64,000 nt of DNA from Leucoraja ocellata (lineage: Eukaryota): contig JAWMAR010000384.1 of assembly GCA_036785375.1 (NCBI GenBank), forward strand, positions 124,001 through 188,000, in the 5' to 3' direction. This document shows positions 4,474-56,806 of the stretch, one piece after another. A model generated the notes under the pieces. That model was not told the origin of the DNA. It made no database searches and was given only the letters and a program-made list of their open reading frames with translations. The position numbers and the translations under genes are program-made. How positions within the stretch are numbered: the stretch's first letter is position 1; every line of letters begins with the position of its first letter.

Positions 4474-7097
4474 CACCCCGACTAGCACAGAAAATTTCAG
4501 CTCAAAAATCGGCCGTTTTCCATGTTTTTAACGGGTGGGAAAGTGCGTGTTTCCCCATTCACTTACATGTACCGATCTGACATATGTCCTCCAGTTAAAA
4601 TTTTCGGTCACGTGAGGGGGGGATCTACGCTCATTTGACCTTTGGTGAAATCACCCTATTCACACGATCCCAGATCAGGAGCGGAGCCAATTCCGCCGTG
4701 CATCAGGAAAACGATTGATTTATTCAGCGTCAGAGACAAGTGGCGCTAATAACCGTGCAGCGAGAAACCATTCGTAGGCGTTGCGCGGTAGACTGTGTGG
4801 GCAGCTGTGTGGCCTGTAACGGAGGATGATGCATCCAGACGCTGCTGTCTGCACGCCAACAACACAGAGGCTGAATATGCATCATCACTTAAATCATTCC
4901 TTGAATGTTCCTTTCTGCAGGCGTGCCAGCGTGAGAGTGTGGTGTTAATGTGAAAGTATCGGAGGGCATCAGCGTCTGAAAAGCTAGGAGTGGTGTAGAC
5001 GCGAATAATGTTCAAACTGGCGGTGAACCTGCAGCAGTTTCACGGCGAAGGAGGTGTCGCGGCTCGTTGGGCTTCATCTCTCTCAGTAGGTGCCGGCGCA
5101 TTTCTGCCTCGGGTTGTTGGTCCTTAAGGCTAAAACTGTAACGTTGGTGGATGTGTGGGCCAGTCATCAGGAGAGGATGGCAATGGCACGCGTCCTTTCA
5201 TTTTGCCTTTTAAGGCGGGGAGTAGACCAAAGATCCCATAGCGGAGGATCCTATCGCAATAGGATCTTTGGAATAGACTGCATTTCCAGACCAGTCTTCA
5301 GAAGGACTCGCTATGCTCCTGCTGCATTAACTCAGCGGGTCAAGCAGCATCAAGGAGATAAAGGATGGGTGATATTTCGGGTCTGGACCCCCCCCCCCCC
5401 CCTACTCTTCATCCCTCGGCTGCTCTTCCAGTGAAAACTAACTTGCATCTCTCTCTTCCCCAGTTCTGGCGAAGGATCGCAAGCCCGGAAGATTTTTCTT
5501 TCTACAGACTACGACCCCCCCCCCCCCCCCCCCGCATGAGATTATGTTTTTGTTTCAGATTTGCAGCATCTGCAGGTTTTGTTTTGTTTTTAATAAATTC
5601 TCTCTCAGTTGGGAGCGTAACTATAGCGTCAGCTCAGAGCTTACTATCCGAAGGGCAAGGTGATGTTTAATTTACACTAATGTTGTTGCTCATTGATTCG
5701 GGCCAAGTTAACGTGAACTGAGAACTGGTCATGCAAACCTGATCAGTGGTTTCCCGGACCAGTGTGAGCCACTTTACCGATTTAATTAAAAATAACAGAA
5801 AATACTGGACATGTTCAAGTCAATCACAATATTTGCAATGAGACACAAAACAGGAACACTAAAGCTTTTGATCTTTTATCAGAACTGAAAGGCAGATTTA
5901 AAAGAATTACAGATCAAAATAACGGCGACGGGAAACAGCGAAGGTTTGGCAGAGGATGTCCTGAATAACATGACGGCGCACACAGCAAGGTAACTTACAG
6001 CGAGGTTCAATTTCTAAACCCGCAGGTTCCAACTAATCCGCTACCCGCCTTCAGCTATTTCTAACTGCAGATTTCGGCATCCATACTATTTTGCTTCGGT
6101 GGTGAAAGTTTTGTCGGAGACAGTGACCAACAGTCACAGTGACTGCGATTTACAGTTACTGGATGCAGGTTGTCACAACGAGCCTAGATTTTTCCTTTAA
6201 GCTGCGGCTGAGAATAAACGACAGGTACTTGCTCTCCATCGCAACTCTGTGTTTGGGGGCTGGCTTTGCAAAATTTCAGAATTGAATATTGTACCTGGAA
6301 ATATAGGAAATATAGATAGCAGATTAATTGTCCTTATTTTACCGTATATGATATTTAGAGAGCAGAATGTTTACATTTATGATGTTAGTAATTACTCTAC
6401 ACATTGCAGTAAATCCACTTGACTTTAACCTGTAATGTCGCGGTAAGCAGGTTTTCAAACAATGTTAACTTTATGTCAATGTTAGCTTTAAAATAGGTCT
6501 GGCCTTTTCTCATTAATTATAGATTATATTTCACAACGCCATATTTCAGTTCATCGAGAAGATGGGGGCTCACTGAGTAAACCCATCCCACCGCTAATTT
6601 CTCAGTGGCATTTTCTTCCCACATTCCAATCAACGTCTCTCCCTCCCAGATTCTACCACTCACCTGCAAACTGGGGGTAATCTATAGCGGCACTGGAATC
6701 TTTGGGATCTGGGTGGGAGCACCTGGGGGAATCCCTTTGCCTTCTTGGGGAGAATTGGGAAAAGTCCTCACATGCAGCGTGGACAGCAGTGTTGCTCAGG
6801 AGTTAGACACAAAAAGCTGGAGTAACTCAGCGGGACAGACAGCATCTCTGGAGAGAAGGAATGGGTGACATTTCGCGTCGAGACCCTTCTGCAGTTGCAC
6901 CGGAGTTGCTGGAGCCGCGAGGCAGCAACTCTCTTGGAACCATTGGGGTTGGACTAGGACTTCCCTTGGGACAATTATCTTTAATTGTTTGTTTTCCAGT
7001 ACAGCCCGTGTCGTTGGATGTCTGCCCGAATACATTGTCATGTAGTTTGAAATGCACTTTTTTTGTTTTGTTTTTACAGCATACCTGCTCTGTTGAA

Positions 7098-7208
7098 TTA
7101 TTGGTGGCCTTTACCATCGCAATAAACGACCTGTGAATCTGCAATCTGACGGATTTCCGCGTATGTTGTAGAAGACGTATTCGTATATACACCAGGTCCT
7201 GAAATATC
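7098..7208 (-). CDS. putative terminal cytoplasmic exon of the NKp30/CD28-like receptor (DISGPGVYTNTSSTTYAEIRQIADSQVVYCDGKGHQ*)
   Basis: pyrimidine-rich acceptor ctctcttgtttcccaaag, phase 0 matching the 8331 donor, 36 codons with three Tyr motifs, TAA at 7100-7098. Confidence 0.55.
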   Translation of the reverse strand, partial: DISGPGVYTNTSSTTYAEIRQIADSQVVYCDGKGHQ

Positions 7209-7451
7209 CTTTGGGAAACAAGAGAGTTAACTTCACGAAACTCAATAACTACATAGAAACATAGAACATACTCAACAACGTACCTCGGTGACTGCCAATC
7301 ACCACCCCCCCTCCCCCCCCCCCCCGCCACTTATAATCATTTATTCAAATCGTTTGCTATGTCGCTCTTCCAGGGAGATGCTAAATGCAGTTTGTTGTCT
7401 CTGTACTGTACACTGACAATGACAATTAAAATTGAATCTGAATCTGAATCT

Positions 7452-7748
7452 GAAACATAGAAAATAGGTGCAGGAGTAGGTCATTCGGCCCTTCGAGCCT
7501 GCACCACCATTCAATATGATCATGGCTGATCATCCAACTCAGTATCCTGTACCTGCCTTCTCTCCATATCCCCTGATCCCGTTAGCCACAAGGGCCACAT
7601 CTAACTCCCTCTTAAATACAGGCAATGAACTACCTTCTGTGGCACAGAATTCCAGAGATTCACCACTCTCTGTGTGAAAAATGTTTTTCTCATCTCGGTC
7701 CTAAAAGATTTCCCCCTTATCCTCAAACCGTGACCCCTTGTTCTGGAG
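7452..7748 (-). mobile_element. CR1 3' fragment
   Basis: reverse complement of the CR1 3' end seen at 460-770 (ORF 7601-7819: TRGHGLRIRGKSFRTEMRKTFFTQRVVNLWN). Confidence 0.85.
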
Positions 7749-8330
7749 GACCAAGATAAATGTTGAATCAAGATAAATTGTCCACAATCTATGAGAGAAA
7801 AGTTACAACGTACCTTCATACTTTGCTTTGTTTAAATATAATATCATGTTATCAAATGGAACAATTATTTTCAATCCGCATGTAAATTTCTGCCATTTTA
7901 TCGCTGCTTTCCCCTAAATACCTTAATTACCAGAATATCAATTACTCTTTTCTCTTTGCACAAACCAAGGTCGAATAGATTCTAACACCTCGTTGGATCC
8001 TCAACATTTATTTTTTCCAATGCTAATGTCGCTAATATGGCTTGCCCAGTCTAGTTGCTTGTCTGATTTTTCAATGGCCTTTTCTCTAATCAGATATGAT
8101 CGCTGACCATGGAACTTCGCAAGGCGCAGCGATAAGCAGTGGATGCTTTGAATTTGACTTGAACATGACACTACTTTGAATCAAAGTGTCATGTTCCTAA
8201 AAATTATGGAGAACAACTAAAACAGTGGGGGAAAAAACAACGATTAAACACCTTTTGGAAAGTACATGTCATTTGTTTGCACTAATAACATATGGTGCGT
8301 AAAGGGACGTAAATTGTGCAGTTACACTAC

Positions 8331-8380
8331 CTCCAGTACTGTTCCAGGGGTCGAATCACTGTGCACCATTAACCGTTTTT
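8331..8380 (-). CDS. putative juxtamembrane cytoplasmic exon of the receptor ((Q)KRLMVHSDSTPGTVLE)
   Basis: acceptor ttttgtaattatag, phase-1 start matching the TM exon, open frame; donor gag|gtagtg is weak and read-through gives ...LEVV* at 8322. Confidence 0.55.
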
Positions 8381-8559
8381 CTATAATTACAAAATAACCA
8401 AGCATTATTTCAAGTGACATGTTATCATTGTGTCAAGGCTGTAAATATAATCACAAGGAACTACAGGTGCTGTTTTACACAAACTGCTGGACTAATTCAG
8501 TGGGACAAGCAGCATCTCTGGAGAACACTATGAACATAGAATTATCCAAGGTAATAACC

Positions 8560-8975
8560 CATTCAAGATTTAAGAGAGTTTATTGTCATGTGTCCCAGAT
8601 AGGACAATGAAATTCTTGCTTTGCTTCAGCACAACAGAATATAGAAGGCGTGAATACAGAACAGATCAGTGTGTCCATATACCATTGTATAAATATATAC
8701 ATACATGAATAAATAAAACAGCTAAACTGCAAATAAACAGATAATGGGATATTAATGTTCAGAGTTTTGTTTGAGTTGAGTTCAATAGCCTGATAGCTGT
8801 GGGTAGGAGCTGTTTCTGAATCTGGACGTTGCAGTCTTCAGACTCCAGTACCTTCTACCCGATGGTAGCGAGGAGATGAGTGTGTGGCCAGGATGACGTG
8901 GGTCCTTGATGATGCTGCCAGCCTTTTTGCGGCAGCGACTGCGATAGATCCCCTCGATGGTAGGGAGGTCAGAGC
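8560..8975 (-). mobile_element. Rex1/Babar-type LINE 3' fragment
   Basis: ORF 8782-9000 (RCRKKAGSIIKDPRHPGHTLISSLPSGRRY.SLKT.TSRFRNS) is a typical Rex-Babar C-terminus; a related 3' UTR piece lies at ~3805-4075. Confidence 0.7.
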
Positions 8976-9459
8976 TGCCTCCTCCCTTCTCTTCCCACAC
9001 CTCTACTGTACCCCACCTGGTCCCACATCTATTTTTCTCCTCCCCTCCCCCTCGTTGTACATTATTTCCTCTGTCTTTACAATTCGCAACTCTTCAATCT
9101 GTTCTACTCACACTTTCTATTCTAATCCCCGGCATTTGTTCCTACCAGGTATCAAGCCGTGCCTCCACTGATTACCTGCAATGCTTTGTCCCGTCTCCCC
9201 TCTCTTCCTGCTTCCCCCTCTCCTACAGTCAGTCTGAAGAAGGGCCCCAACCCAAAACGTCACCTATCCATGTTCTTCAGAGATGCTGCTTTGATCCACT
9301 GAGTTACTCCATCACGTTGTGTCCTTTTAGCACAAACATCTGATTATTTTATATAGATTGCAAATATTGCAGAGGAGGGGACGACTTGATTATTGGAGTG
9401 AAGACACTAAGTCCTGCGATATGAATATATAAAGGAATGATTATAACAGTTTGTTTTAC

Positions 9460-9852
9460 CATATAACCATATAACCATATAACAATTACAGCACGGAAAG
9501 TCCGTGCCGAACAACATTTTCCCCCTTAGTCCCACCTGCCTGCACTCATACCATAACCCTCCATTCCCTTCTCATCCATATGCCTATCCAATTTATTTTT
9601 AAATGATACCAATGAACCTGCCTCCACCACTTCCACTGGAAGTTCATTCCACACCGCTACCATTCTCTGAGTAAAGAAGTTCTCCCTCATATTACCCCTA
9701 AACTTCTGTCCCTTAATTCTGAAGTCATGTCCTCTTGTTTGAATCTTCCCTATTCTCAAAGGGAAAAGCTTGTCCACATCAACTCTGTCTATCCCTCTCA
9801 TCATTTTAAAGACCTCTATCAAGTCCCCCCTTAACCTTCTGCGCCCCAGAGA
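9460..9852 (-). mobile_element. CR1 3' fragment (different subfamily)
   Basis: ORF 9526-9822 (IEVFKMMRGIDRVD..TRGH..FFTQR..AVWNELP); short tandem tail ccatataa at ~9460-9483. Confidence 0.85.
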
Positions 9853-9970
9853 ATAAAGGATTTATAAAACAAAAGGTTTTAGGATTAGTAAAATGTGGAA
9901 CTGAGAGTAAACTGAGATTTTCTGAGAACTTATTTTTGTTTTTGCTACTTTGAAATCTTTGCAACAGGAA

Positions 9971-10183
9971 TGCCCCTGTCCCACTTAGAAAACCTGAACG
10001 GAAACCTCTGGAGATTTTGCGCCCCACCCAAGGTTTCCGTGCGGTTCCCGGAGGTTTTTGCCAGTCTCCCTATTTGCTTCCACTACCTGCAACCTCCGGC
10101 AACCACCTGCAACCTCCGGCAACCATCTGCAACCTCCAGTGTCCAGAGGTTTTCGTTCAGGTTTCCTAAGTGGAACAGGGGCA
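9971..10183. mobile_element. MITE, PIF/Harbinger-like (copy A)
   Basis: terminal inverted repeats tgcccctgtcccacttag...ctaagtggaacaggggca; internal caacctccggcaacca repeats. Confidence 0.8.
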
Positions 10184-10432
10184 TGATACACACTTTCACG
10201 CATTTTAGTTGCCATATTTGAGCACATTGTTGTACACATACGATGGGCCAAATTGGGTACTCATTGCTGTACACTTCTATGATTCATTTCCCTGTTTGAA
10301 ATTGATGGCCAACACTGTCAATTTTACCTTAATAATTTGTTGATGAATATTATATATTCAGAGTATATTCGTTATTTACAGCGGAAAATTGACGTAAGCC
10401 TCTTAAGTTCGCGGTGAAAGCTTAATACTCAC

Positions 10433-10546
10433 GTTTTACCTTCCAACAGCTTACCGCTATGAAAATAATGACAAATATCAGGCAAATCAGCCGATAAAGC
10501 CACGAATGTAGTTCTTTCCAGTAAACGGGAAGTTCTTTCCGGTAAA
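10433..10546 (-). CDS. stalk + transmembrane exon of the NKp30-like receptor ((V)YRKELPVYWKELHSWLYRLICLIFVIIFIAVSCWKVK)
   Basis: acceptor cacttctttcaaag, consensus donor |gtgagt, 114 nt, phase 1-1 in frame with the V exon; hydrophobic stretch with an N-proximal Arg followed by basic residues. Confidence 0.8.
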
Positions 10547-11150
10547 CTTTGAAAGAAGTGTACAAATATTAGGGTTAATATTTATAGGAAACTATAATTG
10601 GCACGTTTTACTGAAAAGTAAAGGAGTAATATGTATCATTGTGCGCTCCCGGAGAGTTGACCCACTACACCTGCATCGTTTTGAGATACTTTACAATATT
10701 ATATATGTAATCAAACTTAAAATGCCGAGGTTTAGTATTTTCTCGTTATATTCGGCCGTTTCGCTTCTCGGCGGAAGTGCTTTCCATTTAAATTCCACAA
10801 GTTGATATATTTTTTAAAGACAGCGGAAAGATGAGTTTCTTGATGTAGAAAATTGATCAACTGATATCGCAAAACACGTTTGGCCGTCAGTGTTTAAAAC
10901 TGGGAGTTCCCGCCGATGTAAAATTGGCTGCCGAAGTCTCGGAGTCTTCACGTGGAACTAGAAGTTGACAATATTTTACAATGCACCAGTTATGGAATTC
11001 AGGTAAATTGTGAATCAAAACGTGTAGAATTTAGCCAAAGTTGCTTCCTGACCTGCTGAGCATTTCCAACATATTTCAGATTTTCTGCATCTGCAATATT
11101 TTGTACAAAATTATCATAGGGCAAGATCACCCGATTTGTGTAATTACTAA

Positions 11151-11338
11151 TGCCCCTGTCCCACCTAGGAAACCTGAACGGAACGGTTCCCGGAGGTTTT
11201 TGTCAGTCTCCCTACCTGCTTCCACTACCTGCAACCTCCGGCAACCACCTGCAACCTCCGGGAACCGCACGGAAACCTTGCGTGGGGCACAAAGTCTCCA
11301 GAGGTTTCCGTTCAGGATTCCTAAGTGGGACAGGGGCA
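11151..11338. mobile_element. MITE, PIF/Harbinger-like (copy B)
   Basis: same TIRs as copy A, flanked by a 3-bp TAA duplication (11148-11150 and 11339-11341). Confidence 0.8.
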
Positions 11339-27279: not shown

Positions 27280-30200
27280 ATGGCTGAATGGGTTTGGGTT
27301 CTCGCCTTGGTGACCTGTTTCCACTGTGAGTAGAGCGCAGAATGATTAATGCTGTATCGTTTTACATTCTGCTGTGTTTTTTTTCTAATGGTTCTGTATA
27401 TTTATCTGTTATTTCTATCAGCTATAAACGCGGAGACTACCTTGACTCAGAGCCCGTCTATATCAAAATCGCCGGGAACAACCGTGAAAATCACCTGTAC
27501 ACTGTCAGGGGGCAGCATCGGTAGCTTCTACACGAGCTGGTACTGGCAGAAGCCGAGCAGCAGCCCTGTCTTGGTGTGGTATGAAACCTCCAGAGGCACC
27601 GGAATTCCAGACCGATTCACGGGATCCGTGGTCTCATCCACGAACCAAATGCATTTAACCATCACCAACGTGCAATCGGAGGACGCGGCCGATTATTACT
27701 GTGCTGTGTGGGACAAGAGTAACGGCAAATTCACCTTCGGGAGAGGAACCAAACTGAATCTAAGCAGTAAGTAAAGTATTCACGGTGTGAAACAATAAAT
27801 CGTTGAACTTGGGTTTTGCTTTCCATCATAAATCCTCGGTAGAAAGATCGTATTAAACCAAAGTAGACAGGACGGGCCAGCCAGCTTCTCCGGTAGAATT
27901 ATAGATGGGCAATGGTTTGTGTCGGAACCTTTGCGAAAGGTTCCCGAACGGAAATATCATCTTTCTTTGTGGACCAGAGATGCTGTCTGATCCGCTGGAT
28001 TACTTCAGCACTTTGTGTTGTACTCAAGATGCCAACATTCGCGGTTCCTTGTTTCTCCTACGTGAATTTGTTTTTTTTTAAAATAATCCTTTACCTCCAT
28101 CCCTACAACACTCCGGGAAATCTGCGCTCATCTATCCGTGGCGTCTTGATCATCGTGGAATTTAACGCCTTCACAGACTGACAGCTGTGCTTCAAATGCG
28201 AAGTTGTTAAATTCTGTAATGATCTGAAAGTCTATTTCCCACTTTCTTCCCTGATGTTCATGAAACCTGCTCCTATAACAGGAATACTGATTCTCTGATT
28301 TGAAGTATCCTCAAGTGGCGGGTTCCATATGAGACGGCTGCTATTGGTCACTTTGCTTCAATATAAGCGGAATGCAAACCAAAACTGTTGCCGTTACTTG
28401 AACAAATGTTCGGGAAATTATGAGATTTCATTAATTTACAGTATATTGTGGACACGGAGAATACCAACTCTGACAGTGGGCCAAATAGAATCATTGGAAA
28501 CATCCAAAGGAAAGTTAATAAACATTTGGCAAGGGATGTCGGTGAAATTAAATGGGATATTTTTGGAATTGCAAATACCCATTAGGGCAAATTGCGCGAA
28601 GTTGATTTCTGATCGTTTTAATGATACCATGAGGGTGAAGTGGCGTTTAGACAGGTTTACATGCGCTCCCTACAACAGCGCTAAAACTAATTGTCAGGGA
28701 AAAGGTTAAAAACAATATTTAAACGCTTCGCACGGCAGCATTTCAATTCCCTTTACGCGAAAGCGTGGAGGATTGTTGCAAGTCTGATTCAGCTCCGAAA
28801 TTAGAAACAAGAGCAGAACCGGATTCTGGTTCATTCCTCGTTCAGCGAGCCATTGCCACCTTAGCTGATCACAATTGTGTGGATATGCCGTCAGACTCTT
28901 TGTACCCTTGACTCTTGTAGATCCTGCAAGGGATTTTGATGCTGGTTCTCCGATTGCCATCGAGTGTATGATATAGCAGAAAACGGAGACTGTTCATTAT
29001 GCTGTTAAACATGATCCCTCTGAGTGTTGATTTTTTTTAAGGGCAGGCGGTTGGTAGACCGACATGTCAAAAAAGCTTCAAAGAGCGAGACATCATTTTG
29101 CCATTTTCGGTTAAATTAATGCAGAAATGGGCACACGTGTATACGAGGTTATTGCTGAATTGCCTTGAATCGTACGATTGGAAGGAAATAGTACAGCGTC
29201 TTTAAATTCAGCATTAGCTTGAAATGTTGTATGAAGTCCGAATATGTTGGATGTTAAACCCAGAGCTGTCTGGACATGTGTCAGAAGGAATTTGAATCTG
29301 ACCAAAACATTTCTTTAGTTTTATCTTTCATTTTTCTGTCCGCCACCATCATTGAATCATGGACTGTCTGGACGATGTGGAAGATTCACTAATAAGTAAC
29401 ATTCTAAAGACTGTTCCGGGATAGAATTGGGATTACTATTTAAACAAGCATTAATTTGGAAATGCTGCTCATTCTGCCAGGATGAGTTGTATTTACATTT
29501 TTTCTGCCCGTTTCCATGATCTGTAGAAAATCGTATGTTATATGTTTTATCAAACCTCGGATATACCCCCATAAAAATTAACTTATCATGATTCTGCTGT
29601 ATAAAATGAGGTTTATAAATGAACGGTAATTGTAAAGCCAGTGCAGTACACGGCCATAGAGCCACGGAGTTATGCAGCGGTGGAACAGTCCTTCAGTCCA
29701 CCTATTTCATGCCGACCGGGTTGCCCTACTTGAGCTGGTCCCATTTGCGCGTGTCAGGCCCATATCTCTTTGAACCTTTCTTATCCAAGTATTAATTCAA
29801 ATGTTTATTTAAATGGTCTTATTGTACCTGCCTCATCAACTTCTCTGGGGAACTCATTCCATGGAGTCAACGCATTATGTGAACAAATGTTGCCCTGAAC
29901 CTAAACCCACTAATTCTTCATTCTCCTACTACGGGGAAAAGACTCCATGCGCTAACCCTATGTATTCCCCTCGCGATTTTGTAACCGCCATGCGATCACC
30001 CTAAGGTCTTCTACACTCCAAGGACTAACGTCCTCGCATATCCAATCTATCCAACGAGTCGGCATATATCTTGCCTGGAGTCATTCCAGCTGAATCGATT
30101 CTGACTTTTCAATCAACTGATAAATAATTCATTTGTATTTATTTCAATTCTTTATTTCCAGGTCCGCGCTCCCCCACCGTTTCCATTCTGGCGCCATCAA

Positions 30201-30484
30201 TGGGTGAAGTCACCGCAGAAAGTACCGCCACCCTGGTGTGTTTGGTGAGCGGGTTCAACCCGGGCGCTGTGGACATTAAGTGGACCGTGGACGGCAGTGT
30301 GAGAAGTGACGGCGCTGCGACCAGCCGGGTCCAGCAGGAGAAGGACAACTCGTTCAGTGCGAGCAGTTACCTGACTCTGCCAGCCGCCTACTGGAACTCA
30401 CACGATCTTTACTCCTGTGTGGTTAAACACGAAACCCAGGCAACCCCGATTAAGGCAGACATCGCCAGATCCAGTTGCCTCTAA
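27280..30484 (+). CDS. IGL: immunoglobulin light chain, lambda/type II, germline-joined, copy 1; exons 27280-27325 (L), 27422-27766 (VJ), 30162-30484 (C)
   Basis: leader MAEWVWVLALVTCFH; GT-AG phase-1 introns; V with TCTLSGG..WYWQKP..NQMHLTITNVQSEDAADYYC; fused J FGRGTKL; C1 domain ATLVCLVSGFNPG..YSCVVKHE..SSCL*; AATAAA 30664-30669. Confidence 0.95.
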
Positions 30485-40020: not shown

Positions 40021-43000
40021 ATGGCTGTATGTGTTTGGGTTCTCGCCTTGGTGACCTGTTTCCACTGTGAGTAGAGCGCAGAATGATTAATGCTGTATCG
40101 TTTTACATTCTGCTGTGTTTTTTTTTCTAATGGTTCTGTATATTTATCTGTTATTTCTATCAGCTATAAACGCGGAGACTACCTTGACTCAGAGCCCGGC
40201 TATATCACAATCGCCGGGAACAACCGTGAAAATCACCTGTACACTGTCAGGGGGCAGCATCGGTAGCTTCTACACGGGCTGGTACTGGCAGAAGCCGGAC
40301 AGCAGCCCTGTCTTGGTGTGGTATGGAACCACCAGAGGCACCGGAATTCCAGACCGATTCACGGGATCCGTGGTCTCATCCACGAACCAAATGCATTTAA
40401 CCATCACCAACGTGCAATCGGAGGACGCGGCCGATTATTACTGTGCTGTGTGTGACCCCAGTACATACATATCCACCTTCGGGAGAGGAACCAAACTGAA
40501 TCTAAGCAGTAAGTAAAGTATTCACGGTGTGAAACAACAAATCGTTGAACTTGGGTTTTGCTTTCCATCATAAATCCTCGGTAGAAAGATCTTATTAAAC
40601 CAAAGTAGACAGGAGGGGTCAGCCAGCTTCTCCGGTAGAAGTATAGATGGGCAATGGTTTGTGTCGGAACCTTTGCGAAAGGTTCCCGAACGGAAATATC
40701 ATCCTTCTTTGTGGACCAGAGATGCTGTCTAATCCGCTGGATTACTTCAGCACTTTGTGTTGTACTCAAGATGCCAACATTCGCGGTTCCCTGTTTCTCC
40801 TACGTGAACTTGTTTTTTTTTAAATAATCCTTTACCTCCATCCCTACAACACTCCGGGAAATCTGCGCTCATCTATCCGTGGCTTCTTGATCATCGTGGA
40901 ATTTAACGCCTTCACAGACTGACAGCTGTGCTTCAAATGCGAAGTTGTTAAATTCTGTAATGATCTGAAAGTCTATTTCCCACTTTCTTCCCTGATGTTC
41001 ATGAAACCTGCTCCTATAACAGGAATACTGATTCTCTGATTTGAAGTATCCTCAAGTGGCGGGTTCCATATGAGACTGCTGCTATTGGTCACTTTGCTTC
41101 AATATAAGCGGAATGCAAACCAAAACTGTTGCCGTTACTTGAACAAATGTTCGGGAAATTATGAGATTTCATTAACTTACAGTATATTGTGGACACGGAT
41201 AATACCAACTCTGGAGAGTGGGCCAAATAGAATCATTGGAAACATCCAAAGGAAAGTTAATAAACATTTGACAAGGGATGTCGGTGAATTTAAATGGGAT
41301 ATTTTGGAATTGCAAATACCCATTAGGGCAAATTGCGCGAAGTTGATTTCTGGTCGTTTTAATGATACCATGAGGGTGAAGTGGAGTTTAGACAGGTTTA
41401 CACGCGCTCCCTACAACAGCACTAAAACCAATTGTCAGGGAAAAGGTTAAAAACAATATTTAAACGCTTCGCACGGCAGCATTTCAATTCCCTTTGCGCG
41501 AAAGCGTGGAGGATTGTTGCAAGTCTGATTCAGCTCCGAAATTAGAAACAAGAGCAGAACGGATTCTGGTTCATTTCTCGTTCAGCGAGCCATTGCCACC
41601 TTAGCTGATCACAATTGTGTGGATATGCCGTCAGACTCTTTGTACCCTTGACTCTTGTAGATCCTGCAAGGGATTTTGATGCTTGTTCTCCGATTGCCAT
41701 CGAGCGTATGATATAGCAGAAAACGCAGACTGTTCATTATGCTGTTAAACATGATCCCTCTGAGTGTTGATTTTTTTTACGGGCAGGCGGTTGGTAGACC
41801 GACATGTCAAAAAAGCTTCAAAGAGCGAGACATCATTTTGCCATTTTCGGATAAATTAATGCAGAAATGGGCACACGTGTATGCGAGGTTATTGCTGAAT
41901 TGACCTTGAATCGTACGATTGGAAGGAAATAGTACAGCGTCTTTAAATTCAGCATTAGCTTGAAATGTTTTTTAAAGTCCGAATATGTTGGATGTTAAAC
42001 CCAGAGCTGTCTGGACATGTGTCAGAAGGAATTTTGAATCTGACCAAAACAGTTCTTTAGTTTTATCTTTCATTTTTCTGCCCGCCACCATCATTGAATC
42101 ATGGACTTTCTGGACGATGTGGAAGATTCACTAATAAGTAACATTCTAAAGACTGTTCCGGGATAGAATTGGGATTACTATTTAAACAAGCATTAATTTG
42201 GAAATGCTGCTCATTCTGCCAGGATGAGTTGTATTTACATTTTTTCTGCCCGTTTCCATGATCTGTAGAAAATCGTATGTTATATGTTTTACCAAACCTC
42301 GGATATACCCCATAACAATTAACTTATCATGATTCTGCTGTATAAAATGAGGTTTATAAATGAACAGGAACTGTAAAGCCAGTGCAGTACACGGCCATAG
42401 AGCCACGGAGTTATGCAGCGGTGGAACAGTCCTTCAGTCCACCTATTTCATGCCGACCGGGTTGCCTTACTTGAGCTGGTCCCATTTGCGCGTGTCAGGC
42501 CCATATCTCTTTGAACCTTTCTTATCCAAGTATCAATTCAAATGTTTATTTAAATGTTGTTATTGTATCTGCCTCATCAACTTCTCTGGGGAACTCATTC
42601 CATGGAGTCAACGCATTATGTGAACAAATGTTGCCCTGAACCTAAACCCACTAATTCTTCATTCCCCTACTACGGGGAAAAGACTCCGTGTGCTAACCTT
42701 ATGTATTCCCTCGCGATTTTGTTCACCGCCATGCGATCACCCTAAGGTCTTCTACACTCCAAGGACTAACTGATAAATAATTCATTTGTATTTATTTCAA
42801 TTCTTTATTTCCAGGTCCGCGCTCCCCCACCGTTTCCATTCTGGCGCCATCAATGGGTGAAGTCACCGCAGAAAGTACCGCCACCCTGGTGTGTTTGGTG
42901 AGCGGGTTCAACCCGGGCGCTGTGGACATTAAGTGGACCGTGGACGGCAGTGCGAGAAGTGACGGCGCTGCGACCAGCCGGGTCCAGCAGGAGAAGGACA

Positions 43001-43137
43001 ACTCGTTCAGTGCGAGCAGTTACCTGACTCTGCCAGCCGCCTACTGGAACTCACACGATCTTTACTCCTGTGTGGTTAAACACGAAACCCAGGCAACCCC
43101 GATTAAGGCCAACATCGCCAGATCCAGTTGCCTCTAA
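40021..43137 (+). CDS. IGL: immunoglobulin light chain, lambda/type II, germline-joined, copy 2; exons 40021-40066, 40164-40508, 42815-43137
   Basis: intact frame and splice sites; CDR3 AVCDPSTYIST; AATAAA 43316-43321. Confidence 0.95.
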
Positions 43138-53620: not shown

Positions 53621-56600
53621 ATGGCTGTATGGGTTTGGGTTCTCGCCTTGGTGACCTGTTTCCACTGTGAGTAGAGCGCAGATTGATTAATGCTGTATCG
53701 TTTTACATTCTGCTGTGTTTTTTTCTAATGGTTCTGTATATTTATCTGTTATTTCTATCAGCTATAAACGCGGAGAATACCTTGACTCAGAGCCCGGCTA
53801 TATCACAATCGCCGGGAACAACCGTGAAAATCACCTGTACACTGTCAGGGGGCAGCATCAGTGGCTGGCACTCGAGCTGGTACTGGCAGAAGCCGGACAG
53901 CAGCCCTGTCTTCGTGTGGTATCAAACCTCCACCAGAGGCACCGGAATTCCAGACCGATTCACGGGATCCGTGGACTCATCCACGAACCAAATGCATTTA
54001 ACCATCACCAACGTGCAATCGGAGGACGCGGCCGATTATTACTGTGCTGTGTGGGATGGCAGTACATACACCTTTGGGAGAGGAACCAAACTGAATCTGA
54101 GCAGTAAGTAAAGTATTCACGGTGTGAAACAACGAATGGTTGAACTTGGGTTTTGCTTTCCATCACAAATCCTCGGTAGAAATATCCTATTAGACCTAAG
54201 TAGAACACAACGGGCCAGCCAGCATCTCCGGTAGACGTATAGATGGGCAATGTTTCGTGTCGGAATCTTTGCGAGAATTTCCCGAACGGAAATATCATCT
54301 TTCTTTGTGGACCAGAGATGCTCTCTGATCCGCTGGATTACTTCAGCACTTTGTGTTGTACTCAAGATGCCAACATTCGCGGTTCCTTGTTTCTCCTACG
54401 TGAAGTTGTGTTTTTTTAATAATCCTTTACCTCCATCCCTACAACACTGAGAAATCTGCGCTCATCTATCCGTGGCTTCTTGATCATCGTGGAATTTAAT
54501 GCCTTCGCAGACTGGCAGCTGTGCTTCAAAGTTGTTAAATTCTGGAATGACCTGAAAGTCTATTTCCCACTTTCTTCCCTGATGTTCACGAAACCTGCTC
54601 CTTTAACAGGAATACTGATTCTCTGATTTGAAGTATCCTCAAGTGGCGGGTTCCATGTGAGACTGCTGCTATTGGTCACTTTGCTTCAATATAAGCGGAA
54701 TGCAAACCAAAACTGTTGCCGTTACTTGAACAAATGTTTGGGAAATTATGTGATAACTTACAGTATATTGTGGACACGGATAATACCAACTCTGATAGTG
54801 GACCAAATAGAATCATTGGAAGCATCCAAAGGAAAGTTAATAAACATTTGGCAAGGGATGTCGGTGAATTTAAATGGGATATTTTTGGAATTGCAAATAC
54901 CCATTAGGGCAAATTGCGCGAAGTTGATTTCTGATCGTTTTAATGATACCATGAGGGTGAAGTGGCGTTTAGACAGGTTTACACGCGCTCCCTACAACAG
55001 CGCTAAAACTAATTGTCAGGGAAAAGGTTAAAAACAATATTTAAACGATTCGCACGGCAGCATTTCAATTCCCTTTACGCGAAAGCGTGGAGGATTGTTG
55101 CAAGTCTGATTCAGCTCCGAAATTAGAAACAAGAGCAGAACCGGATTCTGGTTCATTCCTCGTTCAGCGAGCCATTGCCACCTTAGCTGATCACATTTGT
55201 GTGGATATGCCGTCAGACTCTTTGTACCCTTGACTCTTGTAGATCCTGCAAGGGATTTTGATGCTGGTTCTCCGATTGCCATCGAGAGTATGATATAGCA
55301 GAAAACGCAGACTGCTCATTATGCTGTTAAACATGATCCCTCTGAGTGTTGATTTTTTTTACGGGCAGGCAGTTGGTAGACCGACATGTCAAAAAAGCTT
55401 CAAAGAGCGAGACATCATTTTGCCATTTTCGGATAAATTAATGCAGAAATGGGCACACGTGTATACGAGGTTACTGCTGAATTGCCTTGAATCGTACGAT
55501 TGGAAGGAAATAGTACAGCGTCTTTAAATTCAGCATTAGCTTGAAATGTTTTTTAAAGTCCGAATATGTTGGATGTTAAACCCAGAGCTGTCTGGACATG
55601 TGTCAGAAGGAATTTGAATCTGACCAAAACATTTCTTTAGTTTTACCTTTCATTTTTCTGCCCGCCACCATCATTGAATCATGAACTTTCTGGACGATGT
55701 GGAAGATTCACTAATAAGTAACATTCTAAAGACTGTTCCGGGATAGAATTGGGATTACTATTTAAACAAGCATTAATTTGGAAATGCTGCTCATTCTGCC
55801 AGGATTAGTTGTATTTACATTTTTTCTGCCCGTTTCCATGATCTGTAGAAAATCGTATGTTATATGTTTTACCAAACCTCGGATATACCCCCATAAAAAT
55901 TAACTTATCATGATCCTGCTGTATAAAATGAGGTTTATAAATGAACGGTACTTGTAAAGCCAGTGCAGTACACGGCCATAGAGCCACTGAGTTATGCAGC
56001 GGCGGAACAGTCCTTCAGTCCAGCTATTTCATGCCGACCGGGTTGCCCTACTTGAGCTGGTCCCATTTGCGCGTGTCAGGCCCATATCTCTTTGAACATT
56101 TCTTATCCAAGTATTAATTCAAATGTTTATTTAAATGGTGTTATTGTACCTGCCTCATCAACTTCTTTGGGGAACTCATTCCATGGAGTCAACGCGTTAT
56201 GTGAACACATGTTGCCCTGAACCTAAACCCACTAATTCTTCATTCTCCTACTACGGGGAAAAGACTCCCTGTGCTAACCCTATGTATTCCCCTCGCGATT
56301 TTGTAACCGCCATGCGATCACCCTAAGGTCTTCTACACTCCAAGGACTAACGTCCTCGCATATCCAATCTATCCAACGAGTCGGCATATATCTTGCCTGG
56401 AGTCATTCCAGCTGAATCGATTCTGACTTTTCAATCAACTGATAAATAATTCATTTGTATTTATTTCAATTCTTTATTTCCAGGTCCTCGCTCCCCCACC
56501 GTTTCCATTCTGGCGCCATCAATGGGTGAAGTCACCGCAGAAAGTACCGCCACCCTGGTGTGTTTGGTGAGCGGGTTCAACCCGGGCGCTGTGGACATTA

Positions 56601-56806
56601 AGTGGACCGTGGACGGCAGTGCGAGAAGTGACGGCGCTGCGACCAGCCGGTTCCAGCAGGAGAAGGACAACTCGTTCAGTGCGAGCAGTTACCTGACTCT
56701 GCCAGCCGCCTACTGGAACTCACACGATCTTTACTCCTGTGTGGTTAAACACGAAACCCAGGCAACCCCGATTAAGGCAGACATCACCAGATCCAGTTGC
56801 CTCTAA
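53621..56806 (+). CDS. IGL: immunoglobulin light chain, lambda/type II, germline-joined, copy 3; exons 53621-53666, 53762-54103, 56484-56806
   Basis: intact frame and splice sites; CDR1 GGSISGWHSS, CDR3 AVWDGSTYT; AATAAA 56986-56991. Confidence 0.95.

What the first reader, a model, noticed from the sequence alone, without database searches (positions are those of the whole stretch)
7098..10546. Charged TM arginine plus a tyrosine-motif tail: possible dual-signalling receptor
Seen: the TM region WLYRLICLIFVIIFIAVSCW has an Arg near its outer end. The tail has VYTN (YxN), TTYAEI (fits the ITSM consensus TxYxxI/V) and VVYCDG (ITIM-like but lacks the +3 hydrophobic residue). Known: mammalian NKp30 pairs with CD3zeta/FcRgamma through a similarly placed TM Arg and has no ITSM. 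YxN recruits Grb2, as in CD28 YMNM; ITSMs recruit SAP or SHP-2, as in SLAM and PD-1. Inference: one chain combines adaptor-coupled activation with intrinsic switch motifs.
Basis: partly seen in the sequence, partly recalled or inferred. Interest (0 to 1): 0.75.

Follow-up and report, generated by a model that had tools for sequence, protein, structure and literature searches.

The report
Young truncated copy of inhibitory receptor
A skate immune-receptor gene was recently duplicated, and this copy gained a membrane arginine and lost most of its inhibitory tail; it is likely a weakened copy of an old shark-and-ray inhibitory receptor rather than a conserved dual-signalling one.

Summary
The motifs are there as described, but the model was incomplete. 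The gene has a fifth exon (6294-6184) carrying two more tyrosine motifs. The window gene (copy A) is one of a tandem pair. Against its twin (copy B) it has Pro-to-Arg in the TM, a 3-nt TM deletion and an 8-nt deletion in exon 4. That deletion turns VVYSDF into VVYCDG plus a stop and puts exon 5 out of frame. The Arg occurs in 0 of 9 shark, ray and chimaera orthologues, and a related skate's DNA has Pro, as copy B does. YxN and TTYAEI occur in 0 of 7 orthologues at those sites. So this is not a conserved NKp30-like dual receptor. The family is a multi-ITIM single-V receptor lying between RPLP0/paxillin and the Ig light-chain array. It is probably (about 0.6) the cartilaginous-fish CD28HL3 that a 2024 survey failed to find. 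Copy A is most likely an attenuated duplicate. A newborn activating partner (Arg gained, ITIMs lost) stays possible at about 0.25. No usable RNA evidence was obtained.

The parts
12488..12905 (-). Exon 1: ATG, leader and joined V-J type Ig V domain (CDR3 YYCELMILNPPS..GNG); phase-1 donor
   Evidence: (V-set E 7e-16); leader aligns without gaps to Pristis and shark models
10433..10546 (-). Exon 2: stalk with a short internal repeat, and TM helix
10491..10493 (-). Arg158 codon CGG; Pro CCG in copy B and in a related skate; Leu or Gln in other chondrichthyans
8331..8380 (-). Exon 3: membrane-proximal tail; read-through past the donor stops at 8324-8322
7085..7208 (-). Exon 4: VYTN, TTYAEI, then an 8-nt deletion near 7123/7122 giving VVYCDG and a stop at 7100-7098, 13 nt before the donor
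6184..6294 (-).

Best explanation
The window gene is a recent tandem duplicate that gained a TM Arg and lost its distal tyrosine motifs by an 8-nt deletion; it likely acts as a weakened or decoy version of an inhibitory receptor, with the Arg likely incidental. Shown: five-exon structure, tandem pair on both haplotypes, the A-versus-B differences, Pro as the state in a related skate, and ITIM-type tails without Arg in orthologues. Inferred: the ancestral receptor binds a B7-like or other surface ligand through its V domain, is phosphorylated on up to four tail tyrosines and recruits SHP-1/SHP-2. Copy B would still do so. Copy A would bind a similar ligand but keep only VYTN and TTYAEI, so it would signal weakly and compete with B. 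Skipping exon 4 would restore an ITIM-bearing form. The family is probably (about 0.6) the cartilaginous-fish orthologue of CD28HL3.
For: Arg in 0 of 9 orthologous species: Leu in 7 (two loosely aligned), Gln in 2. Related skate DNA (X18) has Pro and the extra Leu of copy B, so the Arg is one base change (CCG to CGG) younger than the duplication. A and B are about 95-97% identical over long blocks, introns included. Orthologue tails: YAT[LV] in 7 of 7 with exon 4, a YS/YA motif opening exon 5 in 7 of 8, a terminal Tyr motif in 8 of 8. A versus B: 17 non-synonymous to 3 synonymous codons, 9 to 1 in exon 1; not above neutral (p 0.2) but above an assumed omega of 0.3 (p 0.005 and 0.0004), with 0.74 non-synonymous sites assumed. 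Carcharodon and Cetorhinus each have a second, short-tailed gene model without a TM Arg (P0003, P0156), so tail loss in duplicates can occur without charge gain. TTYAEI has Thr at pY-1, and SAP switching is said to need a hydrophobic residue there (PMC12151841, passage).
Against: Copy A carries both hallmark changes of activating partners, a basic TM residue and ITIM loss, on both haplotypes; chicken CHIR activating genes arose this way from an inhibitory ancestor (PMC1458963, passages). Sixteen uncharged residues follow the Arg, a geometry I recall from FcRgamma-coupled receptors. Both adaptor types have TM exons here. The 9:1 excess in exon 1 also fits diversifying selection. The short shark models may be annotation read-throughs. 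Copy B's own last motif is degenerate (VVYSQP, Pro at +3), so B's inhibitory strength is itself inferred.
Confidence: 0.5

Rival explanations
1. Newborn activating (or dual) partner. Arg158 would pair with the Asp of FcRgamma or CD3zeta. Loss of the distal ITIMs would remove the brake, and VYTN (Grb2) and TTYAEI (SHP-2 or SAP) would tune the signal. A and B would form an activating/inhibitory pair.
For: Arg gain and ITIM loss are both specific to A and on both haplotypes. Arg lies at the outer end, followed by 16 uncharged residues. Adaptor TM exons with Asp are present. Nine amino-acid changes against one silent change in exon 1. Precedent: CHIR, KIR2DL4, NKp44-1.
Against: One-base change, absent from copy B, from a related skate and from 9 of 9 orthologues. 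The best 17- and 19-residue hydrophobic windows start at the Arg, so it may lie at the interface. The other haplotype's copy A has a 1-nt insertion in the leader. N/S excess is not significant against neutrality.
Confidence: 0.25
2. Copy A is a decaying duplicate that makes little or no stable protein; the Arg and both deletions would be neutral damage.
For: A frameshifting deletion, a polar change in the TM and a shortened hydrophobic stretch, all in one young copy; a further frameshift in the allelic copy; no sign of purifying selection between copies.
Against: The window allele is open from ATG to stop with all splice sites intact. The stop is 13 nt before the last junction, which should escape nonsense-mediated decay (recalled 50-nt rule). 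The allelic frameshift is a homopolymer-length change and may be an assembly error.
Confidence: 0.2
3. It is a skate NKp30/NCR3 gene with a conserved adaptor-binding Arg.
For: Single joined V-J domain with GxG and a TM Arg, as in NKp30 (PMC6514059, passages).
Against: The Arg is not conserved. Flanks are paxillin, RPLP0 and IgL, with no MHC marker among the genes identified. Other V exons that I read as NCR3-like (L010, L012, L013, L018; 31-33% identical) lie on C2394, C3751 and C4569.
Confidence: 0.05

Closest known systems
CD28HL3 of bichir, sturgeon, gar, cyprinids and catfishes (Quiniou et al. 2024, PMC11599192)
   Same: V-TM-tail layout; CDR3 of the same length as bichir's with Pro at the same position and GxG; first tail motif YA.L (sharks YATL; sterlet VCYASL, cyprinid IVYAAL) and last motif YS.[VLI] (sharks VVYSQV, MIYSQL; bichir IVYSLI, catfish VLYSDI); a secreted-PLA2 gene on the same contig.
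   Different: Polar residue (N, D, S, T) instead of I/A/V/L before the CDR3 Pro; up to four or five tail tyrosines instead of two; the PLA2 gene is 2 Mb away; copy A has a TM Arg and a cut tail. Reported as not detected in Chondrichthyes.
CD28H/TMIGD2 and CD28X
   Same: VYTNT fits the CD28H consensus Y-[EGVTA]-N-[VIMT]; the CDR3 spacing fits CD28X's YxCx6PPPx4/5GxG except for the third Pro.
   Different: No EIP motif and no YEDM. The CD28H V exon is another gene here (L017 on C1120; CDR3 identical to the published little-skate CD28H). YxN is in 0 of 7 orthologues at that site.
PD-1
   Same: Single V domain with ITIM/ITSM-type tail; the Callorhinchus orthologue is auto-named PD-1-like; a PD-1 family cluster shares the most features in the Atlas (198 of 256, score 0.93).
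   Different: PD-1 has no CDR3 prolines, has the (I/V)(D/E)YG(E/V)L and EYATI motifs, and is linked to muc4/tnk2/tfrc; shark PD-1 is a separately described gene.
NKp30/NCR3, KIR2DL4, NKp44-1, chicken CHIR activating and bifunctional genes
   Same: Basic TM residue with or without tail tyrosine motifs; CHIR activating genes arose from inhibitory ones by Arg gain and ITIM loss.
   Different: There the charge is fixed in a lineage and adaptor binding is shown; here it is a single young change in one copy, untested.

Membership tests
CD28 family / CD28HL3 | Single IgV, TM, cytoplasmic tail with tyrosine motifs | tested here: met
CD28HL3 | CDR3 motif YxCxxxxx[IAVL]P | tested here: not met
   Pro position, length and GxG match bichir, but the residue before Pro is N (D, S, T in orthologues)
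CD28HL3 | Tail [IV]xYxxL ... VTYxxV (ITIM/ITSM pair) | tested here: inconclusive
   Met loosely in shark and ray orthologues (YATL ... YSQV/L); degenerate in skate copy B; lost in copy A
CD28HL3 | Synteny with prkab1, pla2g1b, tmem233 (also CIT, CCDC60, MSI1, PATZ1) | tested here: inconclusive
   1 of 5 marker families searched lies on C384 (PLA2, 2.0 Mb away). AMPKBI only on C267, CCDC60 on C132, CD225 and CNH none on C384/C531; contigs cannot be ordered. SIRT4, PXN, RPLP0 and GCN1, human neighbours of PLA2G1B (recalled), flank the locus.
CD28HL3 | Groups with bony-fish CD28HL3 in a tree | not testable with these tools
   No bony-fish CD28HL3 protein came back; the tree is unresolved at depth
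CD28H | EIP motif in CDR3; fsd1/stap2 synteny | tested here: not met
   CDR3 is ILNPPS; CD28H is L017 on C1120
PD-1 | No CDR3 prolines; YGEL/EYATI motifs; muc4/tnk2/tfrc linkage | tested here: not met
   and flank genes
NKp30/NCR3 | Conserved TM Arg | tested here: not met
   0 of 9 orthologues; Pro in copy B and in a related skate
NKp30/NCR3 | MHC linkage | tested here: not met
   Identified flank genes are of the human 12q24/22q11 type; about 1.1 Mb of C384 was not read
Adaptor-coupled activating receptors | Association with FcRgamma/CD3zeta through the TM Arg | not testable with these tools
   Adaptor TM exons exist; binding needs co-IP

The most novel reading that the evidence does not exclude
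This is the missing cartilaginous-fish CD28HL3 checkpoint gene caught giving birth to an activating partner: after a recent tandem duplication one copy gained an adaptor-binding TM Arg and shed its ITIMs, making a paired activating/inhibitory system inside the CD28 family.
Probability: 0.17. Interest if true: 0.62.

Novelty: new member of a known kind. Interest (0 to 1): 0.36.

Why it matters
If the orthology holds, CD28HL3 was present in the ancestor of all jawed vertebrates, which fills the one gap in the chondrichthyan CD28-family repertoire left by PMC11599192, and gives sharks a second candidate ITIM checkpoint beside PD-1. If copy A's Arg works, the A/B pair is an unusually clean natural test of how activating partners arise from inhibitory receptors, since three small mutations separate the two signalling ends.

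Tried and rejected
RNA: no RNA holder listed. Four RNA-guess contig runs laid on 6300-13900 were swamped by repeats and showed no exon joint among the rows printed. On the TM exon, X1 laid 0 contigs and raw-read run X23 laid 0 reads, which is no test. Expression and splicing are therefore untested. The first protein search (V exon, 76-244 aa) found nothing; most orthologues are longer. PDB sequence search gave only antibody V domains. The structure search gave TCR, antibody, MPZ, CD28 and CD8 V domains within 2 Z units (best Z 16.6, rmsd 1.9, 109 aligned; CD28 4r0l_B Z 15.2), so it does not separate families; NKp30 and PD-1 were not among the 50 rows shown. The V-domain tree had 2 of 21 branches supported and long-branch joins. 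A strict exon finder failed. Earlier scan findings: none. No complex prediction was run, as a TM salt bridge is outside what it judges well. Rejected: NKp30, CD28H, PD-1, CD28/CTLA4 cluster genes (CDR3 and motifs differ), an assembly error for the Arg (X15, both haplotypes), and exon 4 as the last exon.

Full report
Observation. All four motifs are at the stated places on the minus strand. Exons 12905-12488, 10546-10433, 8380-8331 and 7208-7098 join through canonical sites into a 230-residue protein: leader, V-set domain (Pfam E 7e-16; model pLDDT 88), stalk, TM and a 56-residue tail. The genome is a cartilaginous fish, probably a skate: another V exon here (L017) has the CDR3 printed for little-skate CD28H.

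A tandem pair. The V exon finds four near-identical copies among 18 matches. C384 (the window's contig) and C531 are collinear at 98-99% over more than 100 kb, so I read them as two haplotypes. Each holds copy A (the window gene) and copy B about 25 kb downstream. Both A alleles have the Arg and an 8-nt deletion in exon 4. Both B alleles lack the deletion and read VVYSDF. C531's B has Pro for Arg and one more Leu; the TM exon of C384's B falls in an assembly gap. C531's A has a 1-nt insertion in the leader and C384's B a 1-nt deletion in V; both are homopolymer-length changes and may be errors. A and C531's B are about 95-97% identical over long blocks, with 17 non-synonymous and 3 synonymous codon differences.

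A fifth exon. Orthologue tails led to an exon at 6294-6184 in all four copies, encoding (V/A)QYSIL and VVYSQP. Copy B splices into a 275-residue protein with five tail tyrosines. In copy A the deletion shifts the frame and stops 13 nt before the exon 4 donor; skipping exon 4 would put exon 5 back in frame. One Cetorhinus model lacks that exon (P0043).

Conservation. An HMMER scan of 1.84 billion representatives and a profile search returned orthologues at about 43-67% V identity from Pristis, Hemitrygon, Heptranchias, Heterodontus, Carcharodon, Cetorhinus, Chiloscyllium, Stegostoma and Callorhinchus, named uncharacterized or PD-1-like. I aligned one model per species and left out five isoform or paralogue models (P0003, P0005, P0036, P0154, P0156). 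None of the 9 has Arg at the site. Their tails carry YAT[LV] (7 of 7 with exon 4), [VI]VYS (5 of 7), a motif opening exon 5 (7 of 8) and a terminal Tyr motif (8 of 8). Skate VYTN aligns with YATL, and TTYAEI with a Tyr-free stretch, so neither is conserved (0 of 7), though TTYAEI may replace the lost YATL (inference) and the Carcharodon YATV motif is itself an ITSM. DNA contigs of run X15 match the window's TM exon with the Arg; X18, another species, has Pro and the extra Leu. Pro is thus the likely state before the duplication and the Arg a single later change. A crude hydrophobicity scan with recalled scale values puts the Arg at position 1-3 of the helix.

Identity. Flanks read LZTR1, SIRT4, CTU1, PXN, RPLP0, B, A, Ig light-chain clusters (C exons from 154 to 936 kb on C384), about 1.1 Mb unread, then GCN1, a secreted PLA2, a Rab, RSPH14 and a G-alpha. 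Families are from Pfam; the gene names are my recognition, and RSPH14 had no Pfam hit. PMC11599192 places CD28HL3 with prkab1b, pla2g1b and tmem233 and did not find it in Chondrichthyes. Its tail motifs match the first and last shark motifs and the bichir CDR3 has the same length and Pro position (by eye). Against this: the residue before the Pro breaks the published motif, only 1 of 5 marker families searched is on this contig, and no tree could test it. I put orthology at about 0.6. CD28H, PD-1 and NCR3 fail defining features.

Mechanism. The family most likely inhibits through SHP-1/SHP-2 recruited to tandem ITIM-type motifs (inference from motifs). Copy A has lost three of five sites. Most likely it is an attenuated or decoy copy with an incidental Arg (0.5). 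It may be a newborn activating or dual partner (0.25): adaptor TM exons with Asp exist, 16 uncharged residues follow the Arg, and CHIR genes took this route. It may be decaying (0.2). The N/S excess does not separate drift from diversifying selection.

Literature seen. PMC11599192: main text parts 1-5 of 6, supplements 2, 4 and 7 as text (the synteny figure's gene order is not recoverable), supplement 3 parts 1 and 10 of 12 plus a search. Passages only: PMC12151841, PMC6514059, PMC1458963, PMC12227049, PMC9614664 (91, nothing relevant), PMC12272517 (81, one reference). The shark NCR3 paper (Kinlein 2021) was not read and could bear on naming. Not found in print: CD28HL3 occurs in 1 paper; four orthologue identifiers and the zebrafish gene name occur in 0; searches listed nothing on this locus by title or abstract start. 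The library is open-access only.

Verdict. Real gene, incomplete first model, headline not conserved. New member of a known kind; interest 0.36.

Noticed in passing
window 27346-27771, 40091-40513, 53671-54108 (V-J) and 30128-30481, 42781-43134, 56450-56803 (C), + strand: Three Ig light-chain miniclusters with germline-joined V-J and differing CDR3s; lambda-type by my recall. They begin an array reaching 936 kb on C384.
   Followed up: partly
G000:C531:474501-870000 and G000:C384:2040001-2235410: Genes that are on human 12q24 (SIRT4, PXN, RPLP0, GCN1, PLA2G1B) and 22q11 (LZTR1, IgL, RAB36, RSPH14, GNAZ) are interleaved in one block around the light-chain array; human positions recalled.
   Followed up: partly
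window 12905-12830, - strand: Leader and V appear to share one exon, unusual for CD28-family genes as I recall them. In the elasmobranch orthologues the residue after C-[TPA] mostly has a G-starting codon (V, G, E, D), which could hide a CAG acceptor; the skate copies read CACTG there. Orthologue DNA was not seen.
   Followed up: no
G000:C531:848665-849112 and G000:C384:110634-111111: The leader of C531 copy A matches that of C384 copy B and vice versa, suggesting gene conversion or unequal crossover; each haplotype as assembled has only one intact copy.
   Followed up: partly
window 10546-10505, - strand: The stalk holds a short tandem repeat (VYRKELP / VYWKELH); about 15 nt of it are missing in the related skate of run X18.
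   Followed up: partly
P0003 (Carcharodon LOC121286047), P0156 (Cetorhinus LOC144687998): Both sharks have a second gene model whose tail ends after exon 3, without a TM charge: an independent duplication, or annotation read-through.
   Followed up: no
G000:C531:478821-550254 versus 601923-674500: A direct duplication of about 70 kb at 98% identity around an assembly gap, likely a scaffolding artefact.
   Followed up: no
L006 (G000:C175), L011 (G000:C3523): Other joined V-J single-domain exons: one with EIPPP, one with a KPQ CDR3; neither was assigned to a family.
   Followed up: no
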